Source: Amoebophrya sp. A120 (Eukaryota > Protista > Dinoflagellata). From it: a stretch of 64,000 nt of DNA. Shown in pieces: positions 2,771-64,000 of the stretch (its first letter is position 1; each line of letters begins with the position of its first letter). The notes beneath the pieces were generated by a model. The model did no database searches. It was not told the origin of the DNA and saw only the letters and a program-made list of their open reading frames with translations. The stretch covers positions 9,710,625 through 9,774,624 of the forward strand of contig CAJINV010000004.1 of the NCBI GenBank assembly GCA_905178155.1. Reading direction: 5' to 3'. Made by a program: the position numbers and the translations under genes.

Positions 2771-5700
2771 GCCCGGATCCAGCAGCTGAAGGACGGTGGG
2801 GCTACACTGAAGGGTGCGAACACGGTATCACATTGAAAAATCCCCCTCCCCATACCAAAAGGAAGTTTCTGATGCTGGATTTGCGTGTGCAAATCACGTT
2901 TGTCTTGCTGTAGAGGACTGCAAGCGTCTGCCGAGCCTGAGTAGAGAGGTAGTTGTGGCCTAGGCGCTTAGCATGAGGAACGTCTATGCTGTAGGCCCAA
3001 CAGCATCACAAACTGCCTGCATAATGCGGCAGAGCCTGTGGAGTTGTCTTCTTGCAAGACAGACGTGATTTGTGGTCTCAAATTAGCAAGACAAATTTTC
3101 GGAAACATACCTTTTCGATATGTTGGGGAGGGGGGATTTTTCCTCTCAATATACGGAAGAATTCTACTCCGCTGCGGGCTCCTCCGAAGCTGGGGTTCCC
3201 AAAAAAACGCTCGACACCACCAGTCTCGATGCGTCCTATGGCGTTCTCAAACGTTACATTCTCAACTGTTACATGAATTTGTGACGCAAGGGCCGCAACA
3301 GTGAAAGGGGCAAGCTTGCAACTCTCGCATCACAAATCCGGCACAGATTTAGATGCTGTTTAGCCCTTCGGGGATTTGTCATGCGAGGCGGCTTGATTGT
3401 CTGGTGGCTCATAGTAGTTTTGCATGACACATTCATGTAACAGTTGAAAATGTAACGTTTGAGAACGCCATACGTCCCTCGACCGGGTTCGTGCGTTAAT
3501 TGACGCGGCCAAGCAGCGCATGGAGAAAAATTTACCGACGATTTTCCCCGAACTGCTGGCTGGGCAGCAAAAAAACACAACATCAACTGGAACACAACCA
3601 CAGCACTACCACCACGAGGCGGAGATGCTGGCGCACACGTTGGACGCGCTCCTGCAAAACGCGGCCCTTCTCAAGCAGGCCCTCATCGAGTTTAAAGACT
3701 ACCGAGTCCGGATCGGCTCCGTCATGTCCGAAGGGGCGAACTCAGACGCATATGAAATGCAAAAACATCGTGCTAGTAAAAATCGCTTGACAAATTTCCT
3801 CAGCATGAGAAATAGAATTTGTAATGCGGATTTACCTTGAGAACAGAATTTGTAATGCATGACTGCGATTAGTACGAGTATGATACTTTTGCAATGCATA
3901 ACGCACAGCGGATCGCAATCCACACGAAGATCGGCGAGGCGAACTTGCGGGAGCTGGAGCAGTGGATCGAACAGAATTTGTACATTTCAACACATTCAAC
4001 GACGAGGACCTCTGGAACTGGAACTACTACAGCCAAGGACATGACTATGAGAGATGGAAAGAACAACCTCCTGAACAACCGCATGAGCATGGCCTCCGCG
4101 ACTTCGAAAGCTAGTGGTCGGAACTCACAAGTAGATCAAAACGCGACTTTCACAGACAAGTTGCGGGAGAAAGCCGATCGGGAGGCGCAAAGGCTGCACG
4201 AGTGGCGGTTTATGCATTGCAAATATGTCTGGGTCTGGTTCTGGAACGCTGGAACATGGCATGCTATTTCTGGATACTGCAAAAATCTGTGTTGCATGAT
4301 TACCAAAAGCTGTCCACTTTTGACCAAGTTGAGAGGCAGTTTCTCATGCAGGTGAGGCATGACCATAGAGGTCGTGCAGAATCTCTCATGCTCGGCCATG
4401 CATGACAGACCTCATGGTGCGTCATGGAACACCTGCATTACAAGTCTCGCAGCCTTCCAGACCCTGACATATTTGCATTTGATACGGCTGAAGGAAGCGC
4501 AGTTTCTCGTTTCCGAGCAAAAGGAGGTTTTGGCCGACCATGAGCGGGTTCGAACAGTTTTGAAGACCCGGTTTGACAAATTCGAGAACCGGGTTGCGGA
4601 GTGGCGGAGGAGACAACTGGCCGAGAATTTTGACCCGACATTCGGTTCCTCGGAGCAAGAAACTTCCGCTCGTCGCAAAAACGGACAACTCTCGTCCTCT
4701 TTGATCGCAAAACCGGAGGGCGAACAGGAGTTCATCCAAGGTCTGACCACTGATTCGACCCAACTGCCCCGAGGCTCCTCCGCCTCTTCTTCCGCAACCT
4801 CCCTCTCCAGTCCCCGGCAAGCGCAGGCGATGGCGCGACGTTCGGTGGGTGGTGGGGGGAAAAACGTGATTAGCCGCGCGCTCGCACGGTCCGCCTCGCG
4901 TGAAAAAATCCGGCAACGCCAGCATATGAACTGCAAAAGTATCTTACTAGTAGTAATTGCAATACAAATTAGCTGAGCATGACAAATGGAATTTGTCATG
5001 CTGTTTTACCTTGGGATCGAGATTTGTAATGCATGATTGCGATTACAACTACGAGTGCGATACTTTTGCACAGGATACAGCACGACCGGACGCAACGGCA
5101 GGTGCCGAGGAACTTCGCGACGCCGGGGGAGTTGTTATCGGAAGCAGCGTATCAACCGCAAAAATGTCTGGGTCTGGAAGATTGCAACTTGTCATGCTGT
5201 TTTTGGACTCTAAAAAAATTTGTATTGCATGACCAGCAAGAGGGGCGCAGTTTTGCTACACGGACGGGCCATTTCTCATGCGGAAGGTGCATCAGGAAGC
5301 CCTCTAAATGTCTACGATGCTAGGCCAAGCATTACAGGCATCACGGGTCATGAGAAATATGCATGACAGATCTTGCGTTCTTCCAGACCCAGAGATTTTT
5401 GCATTTGATACAGCGGACTCGGTCGCGGGCCTGGACATGTACTCCGCAACGTCGCAACAAGGAGGAGGAGGCTCTTGCGAAATCAACAATGTGCAACAAC
5501 AAGAAGTTGTAGGAGATGGAGATGAAGAACTACAGGAGGGTGTGGGGTTACTGGAGCAAGTCAGACTCGTGTCCGGTGCTGTTGATATACACGAACAACA
5601 ACAAAAGCAGCTGCAAAATAACATCAACATCACAAACAATTTGCTGCAAATGGACCCCCACGCGGCGGATGTTGATCCAATGATTCAGACGTTCGAAGAG

Positions 5701-5874
5701 GAGTATGACAACGACCGGAGCAGCCTCGCCAGTAGAGATATCCTTCTCTTCGACGGCAGCCAGGCGGATTCCAGTCCCAGGGGCGATGGGGAGAACGTCA
5801 TTGTGCATCAGAATGATCCTTTTTCCCCGGATGAAACGGAAATAAATGGGCTCTCGTCGAGTGGGGCAACTTAA
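2771..5874 (+). CDS. Hypothetical coiled-coil/low-complexity protein, 5' end unresolved (557 aa visible), 6 introners
   Basis: From a CAG acceptor at 2770, removing six elements plus one DR each gives a continuous frame (ARIQQLKDG..TEEFYS..DRVRALIDAAKQRMEK..SDAQRIA..HEWRLKEA..EAADSVA..GAT*). Confidence 0.75.
2826..3151. mobile_element. Introner family A (TIR core GAAAAATCCCCCTCCCCATA)
   Basis: TAT..ATA; DR CACGG/TACGG. Confidence 0.88.
3237..3472. mobile_element. Introner family B (TIR TATGGCGTTCTCAAACGTTACATTCTCAACTGTT)
   Basis: ~40-bp TIR; DR CGTCC. Confidence 0.92.
3751..3900. mobile_element. Introner family C (~150 bp; TIR TATnnnnTGCAAAAGTATCGTACT)
   Basis: DR ACGCA; frame restored. 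Confidence 0.9.
4211..4484. mobile_element. Introner family D (TIR TATCAAATGCAAAAATGTCTGGGTCTGGAA)
   Basis: DR CGGTT/CGGCT. Confidence 0.88.
4925..5077. mobile_element. Introner family C
   Basis: DR CAGCA. Confidence 0.9.
5150..5410. mobile_element. Introner family D
   Basis: DR CAGCG. Confidence 0.9.
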
Positions 5875-6740: not shown

Positions 6741-8146
6741 ATGCTCGCGAGCGCAACGAAGACGTTTTCCGAGCAGTCGGAAGGTCGGACGAGCAACGCC
6801 GTGACAACCAATACGGCGCTCCTCAACGGGGCAGGTCAACTACCCCAGGCGGCAGTCCCGCCCTTTCCAGCAGCTTCCGGTAGTAGTTCCTCCGCTAATA
6901 TTCCACATGTAGCACAGCCAATTCCAACGTCCTCCCAGCAATACCATCAGTCAATCGGCGCCGGCGCACCAGGAGTTTCTCCCCCTTCTGTTGTTGACCC
7001 TGCGCAGCTCTGCCTCCCGAACCCTCGGTCCTCGCAAACTGGGTTGCAGCTCCAGCAATTAGATGGGTATGAGGCAGCTGCGAGCTCTGGCGGCGGACCG
7101 CCGAACTACGCGATACAGCAGCGACAAAACGAAACGGAACACCGAGTGGGCAGGTTGCAGGATATGATGATGTGTTTGGCGAAAAGGGTTGACGACACGC
7201 AGCATCAAGTGATCGCACAGCAACAGGTATGATAGAGTTTCAGTGTGACTTTGCTATTTCTCTTGCAGCTGCTTCATCTGTTTGTGTTTCCACCGTCTGC
7301 AACTGCATGACAAAGTGCGTATACATTTTTCCTGCTGTTTGTTGGATGAAGAAAATGTCTTTCTATATCTTTCCAGTACTATATCCACTCTCACAGGCCA
7401 GCGCCGCGCAACGCCAGCAGCCGATCATCATTCAAAACCTATGAACTGCAAAAGTATCCTACTCGTATAAATACATTACAAATTTCCTCAGCATGAGAGA
7501 GAAAATTTGTAATGCGGACTTCGCTTAAGATAAAGATTTGTAATGCAAGGCTTGCATTTATACGAATGCGAGACTTTTGCACAGGATAAAACCACGCGTC
7601 GAGCAACGTGGAAAACACCGCGCCACCACCGTATGACAGTGCACAACTTCCCTTCCCCCTCATTTGTGTTGCATGAACAGCAACACAAGCGCTGGCAAAG
7701 ATGCAGCTTTTGCATGACAGATTCCTAGAGGGTTATAGTGCTGTTTGGGATTCAGGAATCTGTCATGCAAACAGTGCTAGCAGGCAAAGGGGATCCTTGA
7801 CCTGTGGCGCTGGGAGCGGGTGTCCACTACATGATGATGATGATGATGATTTGCAATTTTGCATGACAAATGGGGGGGAGGGGGAGTTGCGCACTCTCAT
7901 ACACCGCAACCGCAGAACAGTAGTTTGTTCCACAGCGGGCTGCTCGAGACCTTCCTGGTCGATCTCCGCTCCTGGTGGCGATCTCCGCTCAATAAGTTCT
8001 GCGTCTATTGCGGAATGGGGCTCGGCTTGTATCTGTGGCAGCAGCGGTTGCAGCACAGCTGGCGGTTGAGTGAAATACAGCGGAGAATCGACGCAAATAT
8101 CGTGTTAAAAGTGTCACAGTGGTTAAGCCGACACGTGGAAATGTAG
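6741..8146 (+). CDS. Hypothetical protein (~268 aa) with a C-terminal hydrophobic segment; 1 GT-AG intron (7227-7396) and 2 introners
   Basis: CACC-ATG at 6741; the spliced frame is open to TAG at 8146. Confidence 0.75.
7440..7588. mobile_element. Introner family C
   Basis: DR AAACC. Confidence 0.9.
7632..7901. mobile_element. Introner family E (singleton; TIR TATGACAGTGCACAACTTCCC)
   Basis: DR CACCG; internal GAT microsatellite. Confidence 0.88.
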
Positions 8147-9255
8147 TTGTGAGAGGGAACTGATTTTCAAGCATCAAAAGCCAGCACTCGTTGGTGTTGA
8201 TGGCTCCGCATGTTGCATCTTTAAGAACATCACCCTTCGAAAATGCACAGCTTCTTGTTTGCAGAAATAAAAAATGTCACGCGACTTCTACATGAAGGTT
8301 TTTACCGAGGTTGTTACGTTGCTCTCCACTGATAAATTCCCCACTTTGTCGTGCCTGTTCGGTTGCGACCAGTCTCGAGCAGATGACCTCTCCTGTCATC
8401 TCTTAAACACGACGCGTGTTCACTGCAAAATAAAACCTACAGAGGTAGGCGTATCAAGTTGAGCCATCTACTTCTACTACTTCAACATCTACGTGCAAGT
8501 GCAAGAACCAAGAATTGCAATTGTACTGGACTTATTTTTGTTGTGAAGACTGTGGTACGTGAAACAGTCTCCTGTTGTGAAGGAGATTTGAACATCGAGA
8601 GATGATGGTGGTATGTCTGTGAATAGCCTGAGAAGTTTTCTTGTAAATTTGATGTACACAAAGATGGTCATACTCATATACGGCCAGCACTTCGGCCTGG
8701 AGAAAAAGCGAAAGTGCAAGATGAACGTGACGAGCTTTACTTTAGTAGAAGATAGCGTAATCGTTGTTGTTGTTCCTCGTTGCTCCTCCTCCTTCTTGTT
8801 TCCGAAATGAAGTAGCGGCTGCTCACGCTTGGCGGGATTTCGCCAGCACCGCCACGGTTCTTGCTAGCACCCCTGCAAGGACCTTCTCGCCGTCAAGATG
8901 GAGGCGCAGCGCGCGGAACAGATCCGCTTGCACGGGGAAGCGCTATCCGACTGCTTCACGCGCGTCCACCGGTTCGTCCGCGATGTAAAAAAGATCGATC
9001 CCGAGAAACAAAGCTTTAAACGACGGTAGGCTTTTGATACGCCGGCGCAATTTGTCTTCACGCTAGATGTACATGCTCCTACCTGCTATTGGTTTCGATT
9101 GATTGTTTTGCCAGATATTAGCTGCATATCACGACTTTATATACGAGTTTCATCCAAAAAAGTAAAAGACCCAACTCAAAAAATACACAAACAGCATTGC
9201 GGAAAACTCCCTTTTAGACGGTGTTGGCCAGCTCGTCCGACAGCTGGAGCTTGCG

Positions 9256-12200
9256 GTGCAGGGGTTGAAGCAAGAGCAGCTTCACCAGTGCTTCGCGATC
9301 GAGACGACAGAAACTAGTAGTGCCTCTACTTCAAGCAGCAGTGCAGTTAGCACCACCACGCCACCGACGAGGACTCCGCCGACGTTGTTGTCGCACCTGG
9401 TGAATTTAAACACAGAGCTGCAGTCCTGCAAGACGGAGGAGAACCGGCAAGACGCGAGATGGACGAAGTTGGAGAAAATTTTCGGGGCCTGCCATCACGT
9501 CGTCTCTACCTTCGATCCGGAGCGGCGTGCGGGAAACAAAACGCCCAGATGGATGGCAGCGGCGCGGGAAAAAGCGGCAGGCGGCTTCATCACTTCTGGT
9601 GGGTTGGAGGGAAGTCCAGGCACCATGGGTGCTGGAGCTCTGGGTGGTCGGAACAAGAGGCTCTGGGGCGCCGGGTGGCAAGGCGGGCAGAAGTCCCCCA
9701 GAGGAAATAACACTTCGGCTGCATCAGGTTCTTCATCCGGCGCAGCATATCACCAAAATCACAAAACCTTCAAATACCGAAGACGTCACACCGGCGCGGA
9801 TAGAATTCTCCGCGACAACCACTCTGCGCCGACAGCTTTTGGCACAACTTCGTGGCAGGCAAGATCTGGAGGTGTCGTGTTTGGCCGGGGAGGCGGAGGA
9901 GCGGCCTCCAATGGAATTATTACAGGCAGAGGAGAACATCAGACCACGTCCCGCTCCGACCTCCCGATCGAAGTTCGGAATTACCAGTTAGCCGCCGCGA
10001 AGCGTGCCTTCGCGACCTCGCAGCGACGCTGGATCGATGCCTGGCTGAAGCCGTTTGGGCAGAACAGACCCGTCTCCCAGCACGTGCAGGTGCTGCTGTT
10101 TCCGGTGTTGCCTACTTCGAGTGGTTGTTCATTGCTCTTCTTTTTGCACAAGATAGCATTGGACGAAAAATTCGACGCTGTTGTCCAACACCAGAGTGCC
10201 GGTGGCACGACGACCAGCAGCAGTACAACAACTGCTAAAACAAAAACGACAAATGCGGAGAAACTAGAATATCTCGCCAACATCAACTTTTTGTCCCGGA
10301 GCCTCGGAGAAGCGAGTTTGACCACGATTGCGGACCGACAGGTCGCGGCGGATAAAGCTGCGAATGGTCGTGGGTGTGATGTGATCGAGTCGGCGATGCG
10401 GCTGTTGAAGAAACAAAAAAAGCAGATTTTAGAACTGGAGCTGCGCTCGACTGGTTGTGGTGGGGGGTCTTCAACACAAGCTTCTTCTTCTTCCGCATCC
10501 CCGTCCATCTCGGGCAAAAATTACAAATTTGAAGATGATTTTGAGCAAGACCACGACCTAGACGATACCACGTCGAATATAATTACCGACAGAAAAATTT
10601 CCGACCGCGTGGTCGCACTGCAAGAAGAGATCCACTACTACAACCTTTTCGTCCTCAACTTCGTGCGAGAACACGTCCGGGAGCTGGAGGCGGCGGTTGC
10701 GGAAGCTCTGGCCACCGAGGTAACAAAGATTGCTGTGAGGGAACAGGACAATGCGGCGATGCAGGAAATAACCGACTTGCGCGAACAGTACGAACAGGTG
10801 TTAAAAGAAGCCGCGACGTCTACTGGCGTCCTCGAGAACACTGCGGAAAAGCGCGCGGATGTCATCGCACACCTCTATGAGTTCGCGCTGGAGGAGGGTG
10901 TTTCGTGTTGCGCTGAGCAGGCTGAAGAGATCGAGGTCGTCGCGGTTGGGGGCGCGGAGGACGAGACGAGTGAACAAGCTGCATCGGTTCCTGTGGTCAC
11001 TGGAAATAGAGAACCAGACTCCGAACAAACTACTGCCGCCACGACGAAGAGTCTTTGCAGCGTTCTCGAATCCTGGCTCTCCTCCACTACTACCGCAAAT
11101 TCTACTGCGGAATCCGTGCGGCTACGGCGCGAGCTCCAGTTCTTCGCTGATAACAACAATAACGATAAGACCGCTACCGCTTCGAAGATCACAACCCCCG
11201 CGCTTCTCTTTTTTATCTACGACATCACAAGAGAAGGGCCGGCAGAGGCGGACGTGGGATCCGTTTTAGCGGAACTATTCGAGGAGTGTCTGCAGCTCCG
11301 AGACAAGGTGTCGAAGTGCAACGATGCGGGGGAGTGGCTGCAGAATTCGGAGAAATCTTTCCTGCAGTGCGTCGAGAAGGACATACTCGGGGGGAGGAGA
11401 GAGAACTGGGCGCAGTGCAAGACCAGTTTGTTCCCCCACAATGTTGAGACCAGCAAAGCGCAGGCTGCAGCAGAAACGACCGCGACTAAAGGTTGTACCT
11501 CCGGGATGAACAGTGCTCGGAAAGTGTGGCTTTCCCGGGACGCGCGCGCGTTTTTGTCCTCACTTTCGCACGCGGAGAAGTCCTATCCTGTGCAAAAGTA
11601 TCGTACTCGTAGTAATCGCAGTCATGCATTACAAATCTCCATCCCAAGGCAAAACAGCATGATAAACTCCCTTTGTCGTGCTGAGCTAATTTGTATTGCA
11701 ATTACTACTAGTACGATACTTTTGCAGTTCATAAGTCCAGTTTGTTCGACCGCGTTTGTGAGTTCAACGAGGGCATGGCACGGTATGGCGTTCTCAAACG
11801 TTACATTCTCAACTGTTACATGAGTTTGTAATGCAAGACTAGCACAGGTGAGAGGGAGAACCTTGCGCGCCTTGCATTACAGGTTTGATCCGTATTACAG
11901 TGCTATTTAGCCTTCCGAGAATTTGTCATGCGAAGCAGCTTGATCGTCTGGCGGGTCATGGTCATTTTGCATGACAAATCATGTAGCAGTTGAGAATGTA
12001 ACGTTTGGGAACCCCATACACGGACAATCCAGAGGAAAGAAGTGGAGCATTACCAGCAACGGGAGCTGCGCACGAACGTGAAGGCGCTGATCGCGGAAAA
12101 TGAGAAATTGCGGGGGAAGTTGCGGACCGAGTTGGTCGCCGCGGGCCAGAAGATTGTCGGGAAAATAAACGAGAGTGGTTCTGCTTCGTTGGCAACATCT

Positions 12201-15200
12201 TCTTCGAAAGTGAAAGACAACAACGCAGGAGCAACGGGTGGCGCAGCAGGGTCTTTCTCAGCCCCTACTGATCAAATAAAACCGCAGCAGATGAAAGTCC
12301 TCACCGACCTGTCCGAGGGCGACGCCATAATACCGCCGGCTCCCCCCATCGATCTGGCCGCGCTGGAAGCGGAAGAAGCGGGCTCGGAGAAAATTGCGTC
12401 CTTTCTTTCCATATCAAATGCAAAAATGTCTGGGTCTGGAAGAATGCATGTTTGTCATGCTTGTCTGGAATGACTCTTAAATCTGTCATGCACGTTACCC
12501 AAGAGCTCCATTTTTCTGTGATGCAGAAACGCAGTTTGTCATGCAGAATAGGCAACATCTAGAAAGAAGCTCAGAAACTTGTCATGCTTAGCCATCACTT
12601 GTGGCCTCATCATGAGACGCCACCCAGCAGCACAAGTTTCCAGACCCAGACATTTTTACACTTGATATTCCAAACTGGATAACAGCGAAGCTAGGCTGTT
12701 GGATTTGATCTCCGAAAGCAAGGAACTCGAATCCCTCGATCATTCAGGTTGTACTAGCACGGAAACGCTAGAAGTACTGGCGCAGAAAGCAGACGACAAA
12801 GTTTTTAACCTGGAACTCTTCGGCTTGCTTCTCGACAGCAACGAGGGGTTGGAGCGACGGATCCGCACATTGAACCGCGAAATGGCCGCGCAGGTGTTGG
12901 TTCAAGAGAGTGCATCTTCTTCAAACACCAGCAAAACCACATCAAACCGCGGCGTTCCTCAACACATCACTAACGATGCGAAAGACCGGAAACAGCGACT
13001 TGGGACCTTGTTAAAATCCGTGGAGCGCGGCGTTCCATCCGCGACCTGGGCGAGGCGGAAAACCGCAGATAATAATTCTAGTAAGACGCCTACCAGTTCT
13101 TGTGCATCTACTTCGAGTGCAGCTGTTTCTGCTACAACTACTTTCGAGATGAAAAAGTCGCGGTCACGGAAAGGCTCGACGTCTGAACTGCAAGACGACC
13201 ACGACGGAGTCACTAGGGGCTCCGCCTGCAATTCCACGATCTCTACGACTGCGAGTAGCAGTAGTTCTCTGAGATACAGCAACAGCTCCTCCACCGCTTC
13301 GAACAGTGTTGTGAACGCCAACAAGCTTTTCTCCCCACCATCAAGAAGTACCAGAACCGGAGGACGTGACACCACGGTTAACAATACTGCGAATAAAGAA
13401 GACGAGTGGAAAGCGCAGCTACAGAACGACTACAACGTGCCTTGCGAAAGTGTGTCAACCCTCGGAGAAGCCATCGTGAAAGTGCTGGACCTGACTCACT
13501 CGGAGTTGTTTCTCCTACCGCAACACGGGTTTGAAGAGTTCGCAAACGGCGGAATGATGTTGAGAAAAAACGCAGCTGGTGCAGCTACCCAAACTCCTGA
13601 CAGCACCGATGTCGGTGGTCGGTATGGAAGCGTCAGGATTGAAATCGTCACTCAAAGTTGAAATGATTTCTCATGCAGAAATTGCAAGGCATCAAGTGCC
13701 TCTCTTGCAGGGACGACAAGTGAGGCCGACTGTCAGCCTGTTTGGGGTCTGCGGTAATGCTGCTAAACTAGCATGACAAAAGACGCCTTCTGTTCCTAAA
13801 CTGCATGACAAACTGGATTTAGTTGGTGCAGAAATTTGTCATGCGCCGCTTGAAAATTGTGCTTCCAACTGGTATCGATTTTATGCATTACAAGTTATTT
13901 CAACCTTGTCGATTTCGATCCTGACACTCCCATAGTCGGTACCAGCGGTGTATGGACGCCAGGGTGCTGAAAAAAGTCTCAGAGTCGATTCTGGTCGAAA
14001 ACGAAGATGATCTCCTGAGAGTTTCAAGTAGAACATCTTCCTCTTCGTCGTCGGGAAGTAGCTCGTCCTCTAGTTCGTCTAGCATGATCTTCCCGGATGA
14101 AGTAGAAGATCAGGAGCCGCTAATTGCAAGGGCCGGAGCCAGAATCGAGAAGAAGTGTCTTTGCCTGTTTTCGCGGTCTTCTTTATCGACGTTCTCGGGA
14201 GGTGAAGATCGGGACGATGAACGAGAACAAATTGAAGACCACGCATTAGTCAACAAAACTCCAACAGCCTTGGCGCTGATTGAGTACGGTGGCGATGGCC
14301 TTCCTTCCTCCGCGGCATCGACCTATTCCTGGGTGGTGATGACATTGACAAACTTGCTGAACGACGAGAACAGTACGTGCAGTAGATCGAGCTCGTCGCA
14401 TCATGATCAAGATGTTCATCATGTTCTTGGTGACGAAAAAAATACTACGCCTGCCTGCTACACCGTCCTGATGAAATACCCGGTCACTTGCCTCCCAGAC
14501 GGCCTCTTCGAGCTTCCCAGCAAGTTTGACCCCGAACAAGCAGGGGTAGAAGTTGTTCCGGATAATGGTGGCGAGAGACCACGAGGACCTGATGGTCATG
14601 TTACTGCTGTTTCTCTTCCTGTCGTTTCGTGTTCTCGCCAACGTTTCGACATTGTGCAGGTGGAGAATTTCAACACCAAAAGCCCCTTCATATCCTGTGC
14701 AAAATTATCGTACTCGTACAAATGCATTACAAATTTTCTCAGCATGAGAAATAAAATTTGTAATGCTGATCTACCTCAACAAAAAGATTTGTAATGCATG
14801 ATCGCAATACGATTACGAGTGCGATACTTTTGCACAGGACACTTCACCGATATCGACATCTTCACGGACGCAGCGACCTATTAAATGCAAAAATGTCTGG
14901 GTCTGGAAGGTTGCCAGGCCTATCATGCATATTTTGCATGACCCAGGAGGTCTGTAATGCATGACCTAGCATCACAGATTTTGAGAGGCGTTACTGATGC
15001 CTATTCCGCATGGGAAATACCGTCTCCATGTGGGACAAAGTGAACTCTTCTTGCTGGTCATGCAATGCAGATTTTTTTGCAGTCCAGAGTTAGCATCACA
15101 AGTTCCAACCTTCCAGACCCAGACACCTTTGCAATCCATACGACCTATTCCCAAGCGCGAGAGCAGCAGGAGCACTTTCTGCGGGTGGACGCGCAAGTGA

Positions 15201-31700: not shown

Positions 31701-31862
31701 ACTATTCCCAACGCAGCATTACAAGTTTCCAGCCCCAGACATTTTTGCAGTTGATAGGCAAAGCTGAAGAAAACCAGCTCCGTGTCAAAGGAAAAATCCG
31801 CAGCGGACATAGCCAAAGAAGAGGCACTGAAGAAAAAAGCAAAAAACAAATCCAAAAAGTAG
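28747..31862 (+). CDS. Lys/Glu/Ser-rich hypothetical protein (~613 aa); GT-AG introns 29822-29971, 30082-30262, 31079-31230 and 3 introners
   Basis: ATG at 28747 (361-aa ORF); the spliced frame continues through EDLDAILAELG and KNKKKKNKKKAA to TAG at 31862. Confidence 0.7.
30412..30622. mobile_element. Introner family G-like
   Basis: DR ACTTC; opposite orientation to the 17718 copy. Confidence 0.9.
30693..31004. mobile_element. Introner family A
   Basis: DR GAAAG. Confidence 0.9.
31504..31756. mobile_element. Introner family D
   Basis: DR GGCAA. Confidence 0.9.
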
Positions 31863-33783: not shown

Positions 33784-34024
33784 ATTCGAAGAAAGGAAAG
33801 AATCTGTTCTGAAATTGAAATCAAGAGGTTCTTCACGTTGAAGTTCCTCAAATAGACTCCTCATTTTGAGTAGAAGTCTCGCGTACTACGCGAACGCTGT
33901 AAACTGTAAACTGTAAACGCATCCGTAGTTTCCGCTCCTTAGTTTCACCCAAAAAAGAAATCGGTGTCACCAGAAATCAAGATGTGACAAAATATATGAC
34001 GAGACCAACCCTCGACGCCCCACC

Positions 34025-39543: not shown

Positions 39544-39580
39544 TAAGGATAACTGCAGCAGCGTTGTGATAAGGATAACT
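39528..39580. repeat. 26-bp tandem duplication spanning the GTPase stop codon
   Basis: TGCAGCGGCGTTGTGATAAGGATAAC followed by TGCAGCAGCGTTGTGATAAGGATAAC. Confidence 0.85.
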
Positions 39581-53200: not shown

Positions 53201-55690
53201 GCCGGGAAGCCTCGCAGATCAGTGCTGCAACAGCTGGGGGAAATAAAGGGAAAGACCTACCATTAGCTGGCGCAAATAAAGGACAACAGATGACATCACG
53301 AGATGCAGCCAAGACCAAGAGCAAAGACGATTTACTTCTACTCGGCAGTACTTCTGAGGGTGCCGTAGTAGAGCAGTTGAAGCACGACGAGAGCCAGCAC
53401 GCGATATTCAAGGAAGAGCAAGACGATGTCGACAATGTCCTCGCCACGGGCACGGTTAATTACTGGGGCACGCTACTGGGTCCGAGTTCGGAGATGGTCC
53501 GGCAGGCACGGTTTGTAGGACAGAACAAGCCGCTGCAGGATTTTTTGTTGGAAATTGAGCAAGAGAAAGAACAGATGTTGGTGAAATCCAAATCACATGA
53601 CGAGAATTTTGCTGGTGTAGCTGATCTTCAGGGCGAGCATTTACACGCTACGCCGAGCAGAAGTCCTAGTGCCAGCCCGGCAGTTCCTGTAGTTCCACCC
53701 TTGAATCAAAGCCAAATGAAACTGCTGCCCCGGACCGTTTCCACGCAGAGCAACACTACGGCTGCTGGTGGTGATATGGATGTGTCAGAGTTGAAATCGA
53801 CAGAGTTGAAATAACTTGTAATGCATGAAATCGATACCAGTCGGAAACCCAATTTCCAAGCGGCGCATGACAAATTTGAGTAGAGCCGAAATCCAGTTTG
53901 TCATGCTCTTCGGGTGAGACAGATGCCTTTTGTCATGCTACTTTAGCAGCTCTATTTCTACCCCGAAACAGGCTTACAATCTGCCTCCTGTGCCTACTCT
54001 GCAAGACAGGCATTTTCTTTGGTGCATTTTATGCATGACAAACTATTTCAACTTTGACGATTTCAAACCTGACGCTTCCATAGGTGACCTGCACCAAACT
54101 GCCCTCCAACGCCAAGTGTCTGGCCTGGAACTGATGCTTGGAACTTCTATCAAATGTAAAAATGTCTGGGTCTGGAAGAGTGCGCGATTTCTCATGCAGC
54201 TTTTCCATGACCCACGAGGTCTGGAATGCAGGACCTAGCATGACAGATTCTGCGCGATCTCTCTCATGCCTATCCTGCATGAGAAACTCCCTTCCGACTT
54301 GGTCAAAACTCGACGATTTTTGGTAATCATGCAACACAGATTTTTGCATGCTTCAGATCTAGCATGACAAGTTGCATTCTTCCAGACCCAGACATTTTTA
54401 CATTTGATAACTTCTACACAAGGACAAGATCACCGACTACAGCACAACGTCTATGGTTCCACCTCATCACTATCCGCTCTGTACCAGCATATCCCGGTTG
54501 CGGCGCCATCCAGTGCAGGAGCAGCTGGCGCAGCTCATCTTGGCGATCACAGTTACAACCCCTATGATTTTTCCCTGTCTCCGGGTGCTTTCGGACCACC
54601 AGCCGCGACGGTTATTCCAGCGAACCTGAACATCGGTGACCCCTACCCGACGGACTTCACCAGCATGCCACTGTCCCCGACGGCCATTCTGGCTTACCAA
54701 AGACAGAAATTTATTGGAGGTTCCTCCCAACACTCCGTTTCCGGAGAAAGTTTGAATAGCTTCGGCCGGTCCACGCAGGTGCGGGGCGGGGTGACCACAG
54801 GAGCAGCTTCTTCCGTCGGAGGGGGAACTGCTCCTGGCCCACCTTTTGCTGGTTTGGTCCGCGCAGGGACAGCAGGAGCATCGAAAGGAGCTCTCTCGGA
54901 TGCAGGCATGACAAACTACACCGGTTACACTGGAGGTTTGCAGTACAACCCGGCCGCAGCACGCGAATCCCAAGTCACTACTCCGAGATACACCTATGCG
55001 GGCTTGTCGGACCAGATCAACAGCGTGGGTCCGCATTTTGGCACGGAGCTTTCGCACCTGCAAAGTAGAGCCTTTTCCACGGAGGTCCATTTGGGAGGAG
55101 GTGGGCAACATCTTGCAGGTACTACAGGAGCAGCTCCTGGTGGCGGTGCTGCTAAAACGAGCACGACATCGCAAGTTGCTGCAGTAGAGCCGGTCGCCCG
55201 GCATATTGACCGGCAGCGGTTTGTGGTGATGGGCATCGAGGACTTGCCCAACTTCGACGGCATTTCCAAGGGCTACCCGCTGCAATTTCACAACTGCGAG
55301 GAGTTGCTGATCCAGAAGATCCAGCGGCTGATGGACGCGCATCCGGACATCGACTGCTTTCTGGTCGAGTGCACGCAGTTGCCAATGTTTTCGGATTCCC
55401 TGCGGGCGTTGTTCCAAAAACCGGTGTACGACATCACTTCCGCGGCACACATGATGATGCTGGGCTTCCAAACCACGCCGAAATGTGACGACGAGCTGTA
55501 CAAAATTGAGGACGCGCAGCCGTACTGCTTCGGGATGGAACTGGGCGCGAAAGACCGGAGGAAGTGCCTGGAATTGCAACGGTTTCGCGATTTGTTCGAC
55601 GAGGCCGGGATTCCGCTCGATAAAGATGCTGAAAGTGGTGATGAAGCGGAGAACGAAACAAGGAGGGACGACAGTCGAGCAGGCTTCTAG
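41285..55690 (+). CDS. Giant (~4,306 aa) protein with two split Alma-family (DMSP lyase / Asp-Glu racemase superfamily)-like domains in low-complexity sequence; 5 introners
   Basis: ORFs 41285, 46156, 51940 and 54404 join after excision; motifs LGCLRLD..AGDVADP..RVVPGLTFEMCRSG..ITGDCGFMMFFQ..KPVCMSSL..IAILTAN and FLVECTQLPMFSDSLRALFQKPVYD; degenerate first copy ISGEDGLM..KPCCMSPL..FVECAEM..GVPVWD. Confidence 0.8.
45482..45787. mobile_element. Introner, family A-like (TIR TATCACAGTGAAAAATGCCCC)
   Basis: DR CGTTG. Confidence 0.9.
45833..46154. mobile_element. Introner family A (reverse orientation)
   Basis: DR AATGA. Confidence 0.9.
51880..52141. mobile_element. Introner family D
   Basis: DR TGACT/TGACA. 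Confidence 0.9.
53775..54082. mobile_element. Introner family F (reverse orientation)
   Basis: DR GGTGA. Confidence 0.9.
54148..54409. mobile_element. Introner family D, near reverse complement of 51880-52141
   Basis: DR ACTTC. Confidence 0.92.
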
Positions 55691-57316: not shown

Positions 57317-60300
57317 ATGGAGCATCATCTCCGGGAAGTGGCCATGCGTTCCAACACGCGGTCGTTTTCTATGGCGTTCTCAAACGTTACATTCTCAACT
57401 GTTACACGATTTGTCATGCAAAATGAGCATCAAGCTCCGCACGGTGAAGCTAGTTCGCATGACAAATTTTGGAATAGCTAAACACCATGGATATCTGTGC
57501 CAAATTTGTAATGCAAGAGTTGCAAGCTCCGGCCTTTCCCTTTTGCCATTCCAGCATCACAAATTCATGTAACAGTTGAGAATGTAACAGTTGAGGACGC
57601 CATATTTTCCGCCGTCGCGGGCAAGCGGGCGTGGAGCGATCCGCAGACACACTGGGCCGCCGCGACCAAGCGCCCGACCACACCTTCGTACCGGACCGCG
57701 CGCATGGGCGGCTACAACACGAATCACGACGGGACCGCCCGACCGGGCACCAGTCACGGCACCGGCACCGCGCACCAGAACGCGACGCATCACGGTGGGT
57801 ACACGACCACCACGTCTGGCGGGCATTCCAACCCGACCGGGTTGCCCAGTGGACGAGCCAGTTCTTCCGGCGCGAATCACGCGGGGGCTGGTTCCCATGC
57901 GGGCGCTGCTGGTGCTGCCGCTGCGCACCAGACAAACGATAAAATCGCCAACCACCGGGTTCTGCATTTGCTCTCCAAGCGTCCGCACTCGGCCTTTAAC
58001 ACGAACCGGAAGCGCGCGGTGCGACCCGTGGCGGTAGGCGGGGAGACCACGGCGCACGGAGGTCATCATCACGGCGCGCAGCACCACGAGCGGAAAGTGC
58101 GGGAGCGACCGAAAAGTGGCGACAATTACCACCACCGGACTTTTCACCACGCGATGAACGCGACGGTGCCGGCCGATGCGACCTATGCCATGAACCAAGG
58201 AGCTGGTGCTACTGGCGTCACTGGCACTGTATCAACTGCAAATATGTCTGGGTCCGGGAAGTTTGGACTTGTAATGCTGGTCTTGCATCCCTATGGAATC
58301 TGTATTGCATGATCAACAAAAGTTGCAGCCTCTTTGTCTTTTGTCATACAAAAACGCAGCTTCTCGTGCGGGCTGTGCATGACAAAGCGTTATGGGAATA
58401 AGTTGTCATGCTTGGCTGCAGTCGGCAGTGTTTCCATCATCCATATTTTCGCATCACAAGTTTCCAGACGAGACGTCCAGGGATATTTGCATTTGATACA
58501 CCGCCGCGTTGAATAACAACACGGACAACGTGATTTCCACGGCTATGGACTACCGCCGGTACATGGACGAGAGACGCCGGATCCAGGCGGAAAAACGGCA
58601 CCGGTTGAACAACCTGCACCAAACGGAGCACTTCCACGCGGCTGGGGCGGGTGCTGCGGTGGCCAAGATGAACCACATGAACCATACTGCAGGGGGGGAA
58701 ACTATGGAAGCGTCAGGTTTGAAATCGACAAAGTTGAAATGATTTGTCATGCATAAGATGGATACCAGTTGGAAACCCAATTTCCAAGCGGCGCATGACA
58801 AATTTTCCGAGCACTGGAATTCAATTTGTCATGCTGTTTGGGCACAGACGACCGCTTTTGTCATGCTCCTTTAGCAGCTCTACTTCAAACCCTAAACAGG
58901 CTGACACTCGGCCTCACTTGCCATCCCGGCAAGACAGACACTCCACGCCTTGCATTTTATGCATGGCAAATCATTTCCGTGAGCGCAATGAGTTGGTACG
59001 TTGGCGAACGTTAAACGTACTCTGTTGGCAATAAGTTGGTTTGTTGGCGAAAAGTAAGGTTTGTTGGCGAACAATAAACGCATCCGTTGGCGCAATGTAA
59101 GGATCGTTGGCGAACGTTAAACGTACTCAGTGGGCGAAAAGTTGGACTTGTTGGCGAAAAGTATGGTTTGTTGGCGCAAAGTAAGGATCGTTGGCGAACG
59201 CTAAACGCATGTTGGCGAAGTGAGGACTGTGTGCGAAAGTAAGGAAAAGTTGGCGTAAGTGGGATCATGTGCCCGAGGATGATGGTGATGGCTTCGGTCC
59301 GCCTGACTCCACGACCTGGTGGCCGAACCATCTGCGGTGAGGTGCCCTTGCAGGTTGTGTAGTGGTTTCGGTCGGTTTAGCATGGCAAATCATTTCAACT
59401 TTGACGATATCAAACCTGACGCTTCCATAGAAACCTCGTTCGGGGGCGCGACCGCCTCTTCTCGGCCGGGGACCGCCGGGGCGAGCGGCAATGCAACCGC
59501 GAGTTCCGCGTCGAAGACGGCGGCTTTCCAGCAGCAGAGAGCGAATTCCAGTTCCGCGACGGAGGAGGACGTCGACGGGGTGTCTACGAGATCCGGCACC
59601 GTACACATGGGCAAGACCGCGTCGACATCGCTAGCGTCCTTGACGAACCTCCGGGACCAGATTTCGAACTCGAATCAGAACGCGCTCTCCACCTCTTTAA
59701 AGCACCAAAATGTCGTTCTTGGAGGTACTGCTACTGCTGACGCGGCAAGCCGGCCCAATACCGCCGGCGGGGCAGGAGGTTCTACACCGACAGGGTCGGG
59801 GGCTACGGGCACTACCGCGTTGCCATTTACCACAAATTTGGCGAGCTCTTCTTCGTCTTCCATGAACCAAGCGGGCTCCAGGACTGGTACAGGCTTGGTG
59901 GATAACGCCGCGATGGACCACCAAAACAAATCTTCCGGTAATGGTGCCCAGCAAACCACCACCGCGCAACAAGCCACCGACAGCACGGGATCCGTCCCGC
60001 CTCTCGGCTCCGGCGGACAGGGAGCGGGCGCACAGTCGAAGCAGACGCGGCAGTACGGTGAGCCGATCACGCTGCGGGCCCCGACGGGCACGTCCGGGGG
60101 TGGGCCAGCACAGTTGGACACCGGAATGGCGGCGCGGCCCACGACTGCACCCTCCGGTGCGACGAAACCCGGGAAACAGGCGGACGCGCAGGCCGCAGAG
60201 CAGCAGCAAAACCGGCAGCACGAATCCTGGCACCAGGACGACGAGCAGGGGACTTTTGGGGGCGCGCTCGCGAACATTAACACCTCTACGACGATTCACG

Positions 60301-63300
60301 ATTACATCATCGGCAAGCAGATCGGGCAGGGCGCGTACGCGACGGTCAGGCTGGCGGTGCACAAGCCGAGCGGCAAGAAGGTCGCCATCAAAATCTACGA
60401 GAAGAGTCGGCTGTTGGATCCCCAGCGACGGAAGTCGGTCAGACGCGAGATTCGAGTCATGGACCGGTTGTCGCACCCCAACATCGTGAAATTTTACGAG
60501 GTCGCGGATACCAGCAGACAGGTAGCTTAAGGTTTGTATATGCAAACCCAACAAGGACAAGCAGCTTTGCTCCTGTTGTAGTTGTTGAAAAATTTCAAGT
60601 TTTCATCTGGATGAAAAGAAAATTCAATCGTGTCACATTTTGATTTGTTTCTACTCACTCCATAAAAATTAATGCTATATATAATCAGGTTTTCCTGGTC
60701 CTCGAGTACATTAATGGTGGCTCCCTCCACTACCTGCTCAAAAAGCGCACCAACCGCCGGTTGTCGGAAATCGACGCTCGCATGATTTTCTCCCAAGTCT
60801 GCGCCGGAATCCGGTACTGCCACGAGCTATGACAGCCTCAGAATGGAAATCCTCAAAGTGGAAATGATTTGTAATGCAAAAAAGCGACTCCACTTGAAGT
60901 GGCGTTTGTAGTCGGCGCATGACAAATTTTCCGGTCACTTAGAGCATCTCTGTCATGCAGGTTGAGGCAAAGGGGTGCCCTCCTGTCGTGCTAAGCAGCA
61001 CTCCAATTCTTCACCCCTAGCAGGACAATAGTCGGCCCCCATTGCGTCCTCTGCAATACAGTCTTTTTTGCGTCGCATTTCATGCATCACAAATCATTTC
61101 CACTTTGAGGATTTCCATTCTGAGGCTTTCATACGAGCGGTTGGTGGTGCACAGAGACATCAAGCTCGAGAACGTCTTGGTACAGTACCCCGATAAAGCC
61201 GTCGCGCACAATATTGTGAGGAAAAATCCCCCCTCCCCATATCGAAAAGGTACGTCTCGAAAAATTTGTAATGCTGATTTGTGACCACAAATCGTCTCTG
61301 TCTTGCAAGAACGCAACCCCATAGGCTGCGCCGCATACTGCAGGCGGTTTGTGATGCTGTGGGCCCTACAGATTAGATGTTTCCCATGCTCAGCGCCTAG
61401 CCCAAAACCTCTCTACTCAAGCTTAGTATAGGCCTGCAGTCCTCTCCAGCAAGACAAAGCTGAATTGCGTATCCAAATCCAGCAACAGAAATTTCCGTTT
61501 CAATTAGACCAGAAAATCGGAAGAAGTACATGTTTTTTTGCGCATCCCCTTGCAACGGGGGTCGCGGGCTGAATGAGGTTGGGGGGTGCGAAGGCGCGAC
61601 CGCGTTCCGGGTTGTTTTATCCCGGAAAAATTAGCCCCCGGCATTGCGGCTGCGCGGCCGGGGCCGGGGCGGGTCGGCTTCCTTGGCGTAGATAGGAAGG
61701 CGACGACACACAGCCAACACCTCGCCACCCGCCCCCACGCTGGGCCCACGTCGGGGACACACAACAGACGCGGCGCGCATCCCGGGGCCCCAAAGCGAAG
61801 CCCTTCCGGGCCCGGAAAAGCTCCTGCTTTGGCTGCGGCCTGGCGCGCCTTTTCCCTTCGTTCCGGGGCCCCGGCCGGCGGGTGAACTGCAGGCCCCCCA
61901 AGAGGCACGCGCGCCTCCCCCTTTCGGAGGGGGGGGGAAAAGGGGGCCCGAATTGGCCCAATTCGCCTCCCTTTTTGAGGGGGGGGGTAAAATGTGCCCG
62001 ATTCTGGCTCATTTTGCCCCCCCCCTGTAGTAGCGGGGGAAGGCCATTTTTTGCCCCCCCCCTAAAAAAGGCGGCAGAATTGGGCCAATTCGGCCCCCTT
62101 TTTACCCCCCCTCCAGAAGGGGGGGCCCGCGCGCCTTCCGGGCCCCCCTTCCCGGCCCCCCAATTGTGGGGCGGCTGTTGTTGCGGCCGAAGCAGGCCCC
62201 ACCTTAGGGGCGCGCGCCCTACTTACTGCTTCGAGGGCCGGCCCCTCCGGTACGGCGGGCAGGCCCATGCGCTTCCGGCAAAAAACATGGCGGCGGCGCA
62301 CCGGCCCGACCGGGACGGGCCCGCGGGGAGGCCGCTTGGTGGGGCGGCTTTTCTCGCTCTTGGCGGGCTTCGAGGTCGGGAGGCCGCCCCGGCTCTCTTT
62401 GGCAAGCCACACCCCCCGAGCCGCTGCATGGCGCAGCGAGGTCCTCGGGCCGGGTGTACTGTCGGGGCACCCCGCCGCCCCCGAAGCGAAACGAAAGCGG
62501 CCCGCCATGCAAGCGGGTGCGCGAAAAAGTATGTACTTCTTCCGATTTTCTGGTCTAATTCAATATGGGGAGGGGGGATTTTTCAGTTTGATACACAACC
62601 AAAACCTGGCCTTGACCAGCTCGGGGCATTTGGACCCGCGGCAGTTAGTTGTCAAGCTGATTGACTTCGGATTCGCGAGCTTGGTTGTGCCGGGGAAAAA
62701 GCTGCGCGTCTTCTGCGGAACGCCCAGCTACATGGCCCCGGAGATCATTCAGAGAAGGGAATATGGCGGGTATGGAATTCATTTTGAACTGTTGTTTTTG
62801 TTATCGCTTCTGACTCGGGATGAAAGGCTGATGATACATCATGATGATAGTAGCTACAGGCACAAAAAACTGCGTGTTGATGGTGCAAGTAGAATGATCG
62901 AAAAGCAAAATATAATCTCTCCGGTGATAAACTACAGTTACTGCGTGGACATCTGGGCTTTGGGTATTCTGCTGTACGCCATGCTTTTCGGGCAGTTTCC
63001 ATTTCGTGGCCAATCGGACAAGGAACTCTACAAGAAGATCTTGAAGGTACAGAATTTTTTTGTGATGTTGCACGAAAGTAGGCATGCCGCGTTTTCATTT
63101 TCTCACTTTCCGCGAGGAGATGCATTGACAAGTTGGAAACTTCTCGAATCAACCAACAATAAATCAGGGCGCCTTCGTGTTCCCAGAGGGCCTCGAGCAG
63201 GAAGTTAGCAAGAACGCCCGTGCCCTGCTCGCCAAGGTTTTCGTCAACATGGAGGTCCGCCCCACCATTCAGAACGTGTCCATGGATCCCTTCTTCTCGG

Positions 63301-63910
63301 AGCACCTGAGTAGTCGTCCGGGCACCGCGAATCACCACCGCCCAAGCTCTTCGCACGCAACGCTGAGCGGACAACGAGACCTGAATTTTCAGCACCATCA
63401 CGAAGCAACAACGAGACCCGCCACCTCATCAGGGACCTCCTCTTCCGCGGGCGCAGGGGGAAACGTAAACATCAACATCCACAAAACCGCTTCGGGCTAC
63501 CCGTTGCGCGAAGAAGCCATTGCAAAGTTGGAAAAACTCGGGTACGCACGCGAAGACATCTTGCGGCAAATGAAGGACGAAAACTATCAAATGCAAATAT
63601 GTCTGGGTCTGCGTCTGGAAGAGTCATGCTGCGTTTGCATGACACAGAAGGTCTGGCATGGAAGCTCTAGCATCACAGGTTGCGAGAAGCTGCTTCCGCA
63701 ATGCCGAATCCGCATGACAAATGCCCCATTTTGGTGACAGAAAGTGGGCAGCTTTTGCTGCCTATGCATGAGAGACTTTTGCGTGTTGTGAAATGCGCAT
63801 CACAAGTTTGCAATCTTCCAGACCCAGACATTTTTGCAATCCATAAAAACTCACACCTCTCAAAACTCTACACCCGGTTTGTCAAAGCACTGAACGCGTG
63901 GGGGAAGTAG
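57317..63910 (+). CDS. Ser/Thr protein kinase, CAMK group (AMPK/MARK-like, ~975 aa) with a long disordered N-terminus and UBA-like tail; 6 introners and GT-AG introns 60522-60688, 62770-62937, 63047-63167
   Basis: [35 protein letters not shown] and DIWALG are all in one spliced frame; C-terminal [15 protein letters not shown]. Confidence 0.92.
57370..57604. mobile_element. Introner family B (reverse orientation)
   Basis: DR TTTTC. Confidence 0.9.
58230..58498. mobile_element. Introner family D (diverged)
   Basis: DR CACTG/CACCG. Confidence 0.85.
58703..59429. mobile_element. Introner family F carrying a 402-bp internal insert (58978-59379)
   Basis: DR GAAAC; insert flanked by a 17-bp duplication GCATGGCAAATCATTTC. 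Confidence 0.9.
58999..59260. repeat. Minisatellite with GTTGGCGAA core (~20-bp spacing) inside the captured insert
   Basis: About a dozen GTTGGCG(A/C)A-like cores; CGTTGGCGAACGTTAAACGTACTC occurs twice. Confidence 0.85.
60828..61133. mobile_element. Introner family I
   Basis: DR CGAGC; lies just before HRDIK. Confidence 0.92.
61212..62593. mobile_element. Introner family A (reverse orientation) containing a nested TIR element
   Basis: DR CACAA; sits between kinase HRD and DFG motifs. Confidence 0.9.
61504..62558. mobile_element. Nested non-autonomous DNA transposon (MITE-like, 1,055 bp, GC-rich)
   Basis: Perfect 28-bp TIR TTAGACCAGAAAATCGGAAGAAGTACAT (imperfect to ~50 bp); 5-bp target duplication TTCAA at 61499-61503 and 62559-62563. 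Confidence 0.92.
63585..63845. mobile_element. Introner family D
   Basis: DR AAAAC. Confidence 0.9.
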
Positions 63911-64000
63911 ATATTGTGGTGCTGTGAGGTTTCTATCCATGTACCTACATTTTTCAGATCGTCTATTCGTGCTGCTGTACTATTTTCCTTGTTTTTTATC

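What the first reader, a model, noticed from the sequence alone, without database searches (positions are those of the whole stretch)
2826..63845. 56 TIR-bounded transposon-like elements act as non-GT-AG introns in all eight genes
Seen: each element is [5-bp DR]-TAT...ATA-[5-bp DR] with family-specific TIRs (about 10 families). 46 of 56 DRs are perfect and 10 have one mismatch. Excising element plus one DR restores the frame every time, including inside the GTPase P-loop (GMY|RTGKS) and between kinase HRD and DFG. Only a few can be written with conventional ends in any register (53775 as GT-AG, 31504 as GC-AG). Established: non-canonical IR/DR introners were reported in Amoebophrya (Farhat et al. 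2021, BMC Biology, from memory); as far as I know the excision mechanism is unresolved. Inference: the host removes MITE-like insertions precisely by recognising element termini or hairpin rather than GT-AG.
Basis: partly seen in the sequence, partly recalled or inferred. Interest (0 to 1): 0.9.

Follow-up and report, generated by a model that had tools for sequence, protein, structure and literature searches.

The report
Transposon introns spliced without GT-AG
Fifty-six small transposon-like inserts interrupt eight genes of a marine parasite and, wherever transcripts could be checked, are removed exactly although they lack normal splice signals; the phenomenon is published for Amoebophrya, but here the cuts appear to fall at one fixed offset from the insert ends, which would give a testable splicing code.

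Summary
Observation confirmed: 56 elements [5-bp DR]-TAT...ATA-[DR], 46 perfect and 10 one-mismatch DRs, 9-12 families in both orientations, all inside eight ORFs. Transcript contigs skip element+5 nt at 12 junctions shown directly and fit by length for 18 more; 26 were not tested. DNA contigs keep the elements. These are the known Amoebophrya A120 introner elements (PMC7789003), so the phenomenon is not new. Added here: (1) all 5 mismatched DRs that a call could decide fit one cut, N-TAT...ATA-N4 (1 nt before, 4 nt after the element), which the paper's legend calls variable or unknown; (2) no selection for G+1 or AG, but U+2/A+3 match the GTA start of 14 of 14 canonical introns; (3) a shared internal motif GCATNACA in 56 of 56 elements, often 31-33 nt apart; (4) 56 of 56 in coding sequence. 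The machinery is inferred: a relaxed spliceosome guided by the paired ends (about 0.5) or a Euglena-like non-spliceosomal route (about 0.3).

The parts
2723..5874 (+). Gene 1 (573 aa, no Pfam hit in 2 exons tested); elements 2826-3151, 3237-3472, 3751-3900, 4211-4484, 4925-5077, 5150-5410
   Evidence: not tested on RNA
6741..8146 (+). Gene 2 (268 aa); elements 7440-7588, 7632-7901; GT-AG intron 7227-7396
   Evidence: not tested on RNA
8898..19165 (+). Gene 3 (2494 aa); elements starting 11584, 11784, 12412, 13623, 14691, 14879, 15570, 16187, 16485, 17390, 17718, 18835; GT-AG intron 9026-9194
   Evidence: not tested on RNA
21260..26460 (+). Gene 4 (715 aa); elements starting 21375, 21722, 22188, 22603, 22816, 23504, 24190, 25005, 25425, 25689, 26177
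   Evidence: 24190 skipped directly (331 nt) in X4; last four fit by length (370 nt); first six untested
28747..31862 (+). Gene 5 (613 aa); elements 30412-30622, 30693-31004, 31504-31756; three GT-AG introns
   Evidence: X4 contig length fits removal of all six (661 nt)
34025..39543 (+). Gene 6, atlastin-like GBP GTPase (662 aa); elements starting 34144, 34635 (P-loop), 34882, 35137, 35964, 36199, 37381, 37705, 38079, 38439, 39237; six GT-AG introns
   Evidence: X4 contig lengths fit removal of all
41285..55690 (+). Gene 7 (4306 aa); elements 45482-45787, 45833-46154, 51880-52141, 53775-54082, 54148-54409
   Evidence: 5 of 5 skipped in X1-X3, 3 of 5 in X4
57317..63910 (+). Gene 8, Ser/Thr kinase (975 aa); elements 57370-57604, 58230-58498, 58703-59429, 60828-61133, 61212-62593 (between HRD and DFG), 63585-63845; three GT-AG introns
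   Evidence: 6 of 6 elements and 3 of 3 canonical introns skipped in X1-X4; Pkinase tiling
58225..58503 (+). Register site: DR mismatch at position 4; transcript joint 58228 to 58503 keeps 4 or 5 letters of the left DR
51875..52146 (+). Register site: DR mismatch at position 5; transcript keeps the right-hand letter, so at most 4 letters of the left DR
15565..15734 (+). Register site: DR mismatch at position 4; the right-hand letter gives a stop in the 2494-aa ORF, so at least 4 letters of the left DR are kept
   Evidence: ORF inference
35132..35390 (+). Register site: DR mismatch at position 5; the right-hand letter gives Trp, invariant in 32 of 32 aligned homologs, so at most 4 letters of the left DR
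   Evidence: protein conservation
61504..62558 (.). GC-rich (68%) 1055-bp insert nested in element 61212, TTA...TAA ends, long inverted ends, 5-bp duplication
58978..59396 (.). 419-bp minisatellite-bearing insert nested in element 58703, bounded by a 17-bp duplication that includes the internal motif
23044..23214 (.). About 170-bp insert nested in element 22816, bounded by a 10-bp duplication that includes the internal motif

Best explanation
These are Amoebophrya A120-type introner elements: repeated inserts with inverted ends and a 5-bp target duplication, likely spread as non-autonomous DNA transposons, that stay in the DNA and are missing, with one duplicate copy, from transcript contigs; the cuts likely fall 1 nt before and 4 nt after the element and are likely made by a relaxed spliceosome guided by the paired element ends. 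Shown: anatomy, ORF restoration, exact removal in transcript contigs, both orientations, no G+1 or AG requirement. Inferred (about 0.75): one fixed register, intron = N-TAT...ATA-N4. Inferred (about 0.5): the donor is read as N|UA, a +1-relaxed form of the organism's own GUA donor, and the acceptor is set by distance from the element's 3' end rather than by AG. Inferred (about 0.6): the internal GCATNACA array is a DNA-binding site for the mobilising protein shared by the families rather than the splice signal. No transposase was found.
For: 11 of 11 elements in 45001-64000 skipped by exactly element+5 nt in X1-X3 (one sample) and 9 of 11 in X4 (second sample, same study), with 3 of 3 GT-AG introns skipped and a poly-A loose end at 56591. 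X5 contigs run from unique flanks into the elements at unique depth about 45. Register: 58230 (RNA, k=4 or 5), 51880 (RNA, k at most 4), 15570 (stop, k at least 4), 35137 (Trp 32 of 32, k at most 4), L045:1743 (Ala in 88 of 98 aligned Rab proteins, Asp in 0, k at least 4). 14 of 14 canonical donors start GTA, 6 of 14 GTAT. The donor-end terminal T is changed in 0 of 342 oriented elements, the acceptor-end terminal A in 5 of 342 (private-change test 0 vs 4, p=0.06). At k=4, 149 of 306 elements are phase 0 (p=8e-8). A120 keeps 83 of 89 spliceosomal proteins and U2, U4, U5, U6 (PMC7789003). Terminal pairs form with P>0.5 in 36-39 of 53 elements, positions 11-12 in 49-50 of 53. Same-direction motif neighbours are 31-33 nt apart in 54 of 114 window pairs (8 of 9 families) and 248 of 579 pairs in loci, about three helical turns of DNA.
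Against: Only 2 of the 5 register sites rest on RNA; each site bounds k from one side only, so a variable cut (k=5 in some, k below 4 in others) is not excluded, and at 58230 k=4 happens to give a GT donor. No excess of G at intron +1 (76 vs 72 expected) or AG at the last two positions (23 vs 18.5) in 237 perfect-DR elements, which a spliceosome might be expected to leave. U1 snRNA was not found in A120. G-U does not exceed A-C among TIR mismatches (222 vs 222; private changes 50 vs 35, p=0.13), and TIR positions 4-7 pair in only 25-36 of 56. The phase bias also fits k=1 or a symmetric target preference. The motif is also enriched in canonical introns (9 sites in 2.46 kb, null mean 1.2, max 3 of 30), which could mean a splicing role. 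[quoted passage not shown] RNA status of X1-X4 is a tool guess, and all four are one study.
Confidence: 0.45

Rival explanations
1. Same fixed geometry, but a non-spliceosomal activity (structure-specific endonuclease plus ligase, or a separate machinery as proposed for euglenids) would cut 1 nt before and 4 nt after the terminal stem.
For: The Euglena code is 5'-N3 CDG...CH'G N5-6|R (PMC12501133 abstract): a paired triplet with a 3' spacer 2-3 nt longer than the 5' spacer, as in N1-TAT...ATA-N4 here. No G+1/AG selection; U1 not found; ends fold together, z -3.2 and -8.2 in the two elements folded against shuffles; both orientations are spliced.
Against: U+2/A+3 coincide with 14 of 14 canonical donors; the donor-end T looks more constrained than its pairing partner (p=0.06); no significant G-U over A-C excess; purine at the first exon base is not significantly enriched (147 of 237, p=0.13).
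Confidence: 0.3
2. Removal is precise in length, but the cut slides within the duplication from element to element, taking whichever register looks most GT- or AG-like.
For: Published annotations show mixed ends within a family, e.g. fam12 gt 92, gc 21, ga 23, at 47, other 148 of 331 (PMC12130899 supplement rows); Farhat's legend says variable; 58230 gives GT at k=4.
Against: Perfect DRs cannot show a register, so annotation spread can be an aligner effect. Sites with k at least 4 include donors CT/TA (15570) and TT/TA (L045:1743). No GT or AG excess at any DR position.
Confidence: 0.17
3. The elements are removed from DNA (programmed elimination or frequent precise excision) and transcripts come from element-free templates.
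For: Termini TA...TA and precise loss recall ciliate eliminated sequences (recalled, not tested). The X5 joint table was saturated, so rare element-free DNA is not excluded.
Against: X5 contigs carry the elements with their flanks; the same X1-X4 contigs lose GT-AG introns and stop at gene ends; 394 elements stand intact in the fetched loci.
Confidence: 0.03

Closest known systems
Amoebophrya sp. A120 introner elements (Farhat et al. 2021, PMC7789003)
   Same: TAT start, A-tract at 11-14, 5-bp DR example, about 240-nt length, many families, RNA-supported non-canonical splicing; loci with these families encode a protein 100% identical over an exon to a named A120 protein.
   Different: The text and legends I saw call the borders variable or unknown, give DRs of 3-5 nt and mention no internal motif; here all 56 have a 5-bp DR and 5 of 5 decidable sites fit one register. 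[quoted passage not shown]
Euglenid nonconventional introns (PMC12501133; review PMC11282704)
   Same: Non-GT-AG ends, paired termini, DRs that hide the junction, asymmetric spacers between a paired triplet and the cuts.
   Different: CAG/CTG with N3 and N5-6 spacers and a purine exon start, released as circles; here TAT/ATA with N1 and N4, product unknown, unrelated lineage.
Fritillaria borealis non-canonical MITE-derived introns (PMC13326754 abstract; review PMC11282704)
   Same: Transposon-derived introns without GT-AG, a precedent for removal by a modified U2 spliceosome.
   Different: AG-AC/AG-AT bias, conserved U1 and duplicated U2AF; A120 has no end-dinucleotide bias here and no detected U1.
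Polarella/Symbiodinium and Aureococcus introners (10.1101/2020.10.14.339549 passages)
   Same: TIR/TSD elements that create introns in either orientation and recruit splice-site letters from the TSD; phase-0 bias.
   Different: They need GT/GC/GA and AG from the element or target; these need neither.
IS3EU/GingerRoot DNA transposons (PMC10045372 passages)
   Same: TA..TA termini.
   Different: TSD usually 6 bp against 5 bp here; no transposase available to compare.

Membership tests
Amoebophrya A120 introner elements | Inverted repeat starting TAT, 7 variable nt, then at least three A | tested here: met
   Position table of 56 elements: TAT in 55 of 56 5' ends, A at positions 11-14 in 44-53 of 56
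Amoebophrya A120 introner elements | 3-5 nt direct repeat at the exon/intron borders | tested here: met
   5-bp DR, 46 perfect and 10 with one mismatch
Amoebophrya A120 introner elements | Repeated in families across the genome | tested here: met
   9-12 families in the window; 54 of 56 have a near-full-length match in 161 fetched loci; summed X5 depth 1e3-1e5 on element bins vs about 45
Amoebophrya A120 introner elements | Spliced out in RNA with non-GT-AG ends | tested here: met
Amoebophrya A120 introner elements | Host is Amoebophrya of the A120 type | tested here: met
   Best named hit A25 at 80% for the window exon; locus exon 100% to a named A120 protein; same families and terminal repeat in loci. 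No window protein was matched to a named A120 record.
MITE (non-autonomous TIR transposon) | TIRs, constant TSD, short, non-coding, high copy, both orientations | tested here: met
MITE (non-autonomous TIR transposon) | Cognate autonomous element with transposase | tested here: inconclusive
   No 0.7-9 kb element with such ends in 607 kb of loci; none in viral contigs; genome not held
IS3EU/GingerRoot | TA..TA termini | tested here: met
IS3EU/GingerRoot | TSD usually 6 bp | tested here: not met
   5 bp; transcript skip is element+5 at 11 of 11 joints
U2-type spliceosomal intron | GT/GC donor and AG acceptor | tested here: not met
   2 of 56 in any product-equivalent register; no enrichment
U2-type spliceosomal intron | Branch point and lariat product | not testable with these tools
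   No raw reads of this strain were served (X9, X10 laid 108 and 26 partial reads)
Euglenid nonconventional intron | N3-CDG...CH'G-N5-6|R signature | tested here: not met
   Ends are TAT/ATA with N1/N4 spacers
Euglenid nonconventional intron | Release as full-length circle | not testable with these tools
   Contigs only

The most novel reading that the evidence does not exclude
Amoebophrya A120 has one simple splicing code for its thousands of transposon introns, N|UAU...AUA-N4|, read from the transposon ends with no G+1 or AG. It converges on the Euglena spacer-triplet geometry. A shared GCATNACA array, present in every family and enriched in canonical introns, marks them for a machinery that also steers them into coding exons.
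Probability: 0.3. Interest if true: 0.8.

Novelty: already known. Interest (0 to 1): 0.45.

Why it matters
The elements and their non-canonical splicing are published; how they are excised is not. A fixed register would turn tens of thousands of apparently diverse splice sites into one rule, correct gene models at mismatched repeats, and say exactly where to look for lariat or circle junctions. It also bears on how a genome makes exon insertions harmless, a route to mass intron gain. The shared internal motif is a bait for finding the missing transposase or splicing factor.

Tried and rejected
No whole genome is held. Run search: no RNA holder listed on record; X1-X4 are guessed RNA. AG or G+1 selection in target sites looked present in raw counts but vanished after codon-position correction. 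The lack of DR mismatches at positions 2-3 in the window (0 of 10) is not general: 7, 9, 6, 12, 9 across positions 1-5 in loci. G-U vs A-C test: not significant. Table S4's A120 motifs all have T second, which fits k=4, but aligner preference could give the same, so I do not count it. Of 35 mismatched-DR loci with a protein change I could decide only one (L045:1743); 28 flanking exons gave no Pfam hit above cut-off, the L046 homolog search found none and a PDB search with a 20-aa piece found none. Window sites 21722 and 22816 change a residue but were not tested; 4 others are silent. No autonomous element found. No Rfam match in the window. No earlier scan findings. My detector recovers 52 of 56 window elements with 1 false call and needs 2 motif sites, so motif presence in loci is circular and was not used as evidence. 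144 of 394 locus elements were left out of the oriented set of 250 (11 short flanks, 133 weak coding score).
Full report
Observation. A scan for TAT...ATA pairs with inverted ends and flanking 5-bp repeats gave 74 rows; 56 are non-overlapping family elements from 2826 to 63845. 46 repeats are perfect and 10 carry one mismatch; 53 strict hits compare with 0-3 in 20 simulated windows. Elements are 142-326 nt, apart from three with nested inserts, and with one repeat each they fill 24% of the window. They fall into 9-13 families by threshold, and the five largest occur in both orientations. Removing element plus one repeat, with 14 GT-AG introns, gives eight ATG-to-stop frames holding 56 of 56 junctions; retention truncates 54 of 56. 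The GTPase P-loop junction aligns without a gap to homologs, and kinase exons tile the Pfam model across element 61212.

Transcript evidence. On 45001-64000, contigs of X1-X3 (one sample) skip 11 of 11 elements and X4 (second sample, same study) 9 of 11, each by exactly element+5 nt, including the 732- and 1387-nt cases; 3 of 3 GT-AG introns are skipped too and X4 ends in a run of A at 56591. On 20501-40000, X4 skips element 24190 directly, and its contig lengths equal the predicted spliced lengths for 18 more elements (370, 661, 491 and 845 nt). So 12 of 56 are shown directly, 18 by length, and 26 are untested. The tool only guesses that X1-X4 are RNA; loss of canonical introns and ends at gene borders support it. 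X5 contigs run from unique flanks into the elements at depth about 45, with far higher summed depth on elements; X5 may be the window's own source, and its joint table was saturated. Raw-read runs X9 and X10 hold almost nothing of this stretch.

Identity. PMC7789003 (abstract, passages, section 16, last third of Results, supplement passages and part 3 of 5; figures not seen) reports over 60% non-canonical introns in Amoebophrya A25 and A120, and A120 inverted repeats of TAT + 7 nt + AAA with 3-5 nt direct repeats. It also reports no detected U1 snRNA and no transposase in A120, and a legend calls splice positions variable or unknown. The window's GTPase exon has an A25 protein as best named hit (80%). 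An end-pattern scan returned 161 loci from one assembly with the same families, one of which encodes an exon identical to a named A120 protein. The finding is therefore the known A120 introner.

Register. Perfect repeats hide the cut; mismatched ones reveal it. Let k be the number of left-repeat letters kept in the exon. RNA gives k=4 or 5 at 58230 and k at most 4 at 51880. At 15570, k below 4 puts a stop in a 2494-aa frame. At 35137 only k at most 4 gives the Trp found in 32 of 32 aligned homologs. At L045:1743 only k at least 4 gives the Ala found in 88 of 98 aligned Rab proteins, with Asp in none. All 5 decidable sites fit k=4, an intron of N-TAT...ATA-N4; 6 of the 10 window mismatches and 34 of 35 protein-changing cases in loci stayed undecided. 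Each site is a one-sided bound, so a sliding cut remains possible (about 0.17). [quoted passage not shown] In 21 of 58 A120 rows of the PMC12130899 supplement (files 13-14 not searched) annotated ends are mixed within families.

What is read. In 237 oriented perfect-repeat elements there is no excess of G at intron +1 or of AG at its end after codon-position correction, so neither is required. At k=4 the intron starts N-U-A-U, and 14 of 14 canonical introns start GTA. The donor-end T is unchanged in 342 of 342 oriented elements, while the acceptor-end A is changed in 5 (p about 0.06). 149 of 306 elements would be phase 0, which also fits a symmetric target bias. The ends are predicted to pair on either strand (z -3.2 and -8.2 for two elements), but positions 4-7 pair poorly and G-U mismatches do not significantly exceed A-C. 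I put a relaxed spliceosome guided by the paired ends at about 0.5, with Fritillaria as precedent (PMC13326754 abstract and passages; PMC11282704 section 6). A non-spliceosomal route is at about 0.3, since Euglena's tested code, N3-CDG...CH'G-N5-6|R (PMC12501133 abstract and passages), has the same asymmetric spacer geometry.

Internal motif. The plain pattern GCATNACA, either strand, occurs in 56 of 56 elements: 164 sites in 15.1 kb against 2 in 31.9 kb of exon, 1 in 14.4 kb between genes and 7 in 2.6 kb of canonical introns. With a matrix trained on elements, canonical introns hold 9 sites against a null mean of 1.2. Same-direction neighbours lie 31-33 nt apart in 54 of 114 window pairs from 8 of 9 families and in 248 of 579 pairs in loci; copies within a family are not independent. 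Such spacing suggests a DNA-binding array for a shared mobilising protein (inference). I saw no mention of it in the Farhat passages (12 of 21 places shown) or in seven paper searches (listings and abstract starts only); subscription papers and figures were out of reach.

Placement and origin. 56 of 56 elements lie in coding sequence, which is 66% of the remaining DNA (p about 1e-10), and flanks of 383 locus elements have exon-like GC (0.55-0.57), though those loci were selected by an element pattern. TA..TA ends recall IS3EU/GingerRoot, whose duplication is usually 6 bp (PMC10045372 passages); here it is 5. No autonomous copy was found in 607 kb of loci or in viral contigs. Other papers seen as passages only: 10.1101/2024.09.05.611473 (another Amoebophrya has canonical introns and U1), PMC11453091, 10.1101/2020.10.14.339549, PMC12130899 main text.

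Verdict. The feature is real and already known; its excision mechanism is open. The fixed N1/N4 register, the shared motif and the coding-exon bias were not found in what I could read, and they make the open question directly testable. Interest 0.45.

Noticed in passing
window 61504-62558: Nested 1055-bp GC-rich insert with long inverted ends TTAGACCAG and a 5-bp duplication; the end resembles the TTA-RR...G motif that PMC7789003 gives for strain A25. Other copies appear as loose ends in X1, X2, X4, one reading suggesting the end may start one base later. No match in the loci.
   Followed up: partly
window 58978-59396 and 23044-23214: Two nested inserts are each bounded by a duplication (17 and 10 bp) that contains the internal motif, as if insertion or repair occurs at the motif; the first holds a 20-bp minisatellite. 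The host element 58703 is still spliced exactly.
   Followed up: partly
window 1-1650: 34.6 copies of a 17-bp tandem repeat followed by longer repeats; a homologous stretch at up to 87% lies in L025. Possibly subtelomeric.
   Followed up: no
window 33427-33780: 118-codon open frame without elements; an X4 contig over it differs at 7 positions, suggesting a paralog elsewhere.
   Followed up: no
window 39237-39378 and 63585-63845: The only two elements whose retention keeps the frame open; both are the last in their gene. 63585 is skipped in all four contig sets.
   Followed up: partly
window 7227-7396, 29822-29971, 30082-30262, 37195-37316, 38640-38819, 63047-63167: 6 of 14 canonical introns carry the element motif, and canonical introns are 121-330 nt like the elements; they may be decayed elements or share a bound factor.
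   Followed up: partly
PMC7789003 Table S4 with window donors: Annotated A25 non-canonical introns mostly start TT and its elements start TTA, so A25, A120 at k=4 and the window's canonical donors would all have U at +2 and A at +3; annotation-dependent.
   Followed up: no
window 27364-33032 and 55690-56591: Transcript contigs extend about 1.4 kb before and 1.2 kb after gene 5 and about 0.9 kb after gene 7: long untranslated regions with no element in them.
   Followed up: no
window, exons between neighbouring introns: Exons as short as 24-40 nt lie between adjacent elements or introns; 39-nt exons are correctly joined in X1-X3.
   Followed up: no
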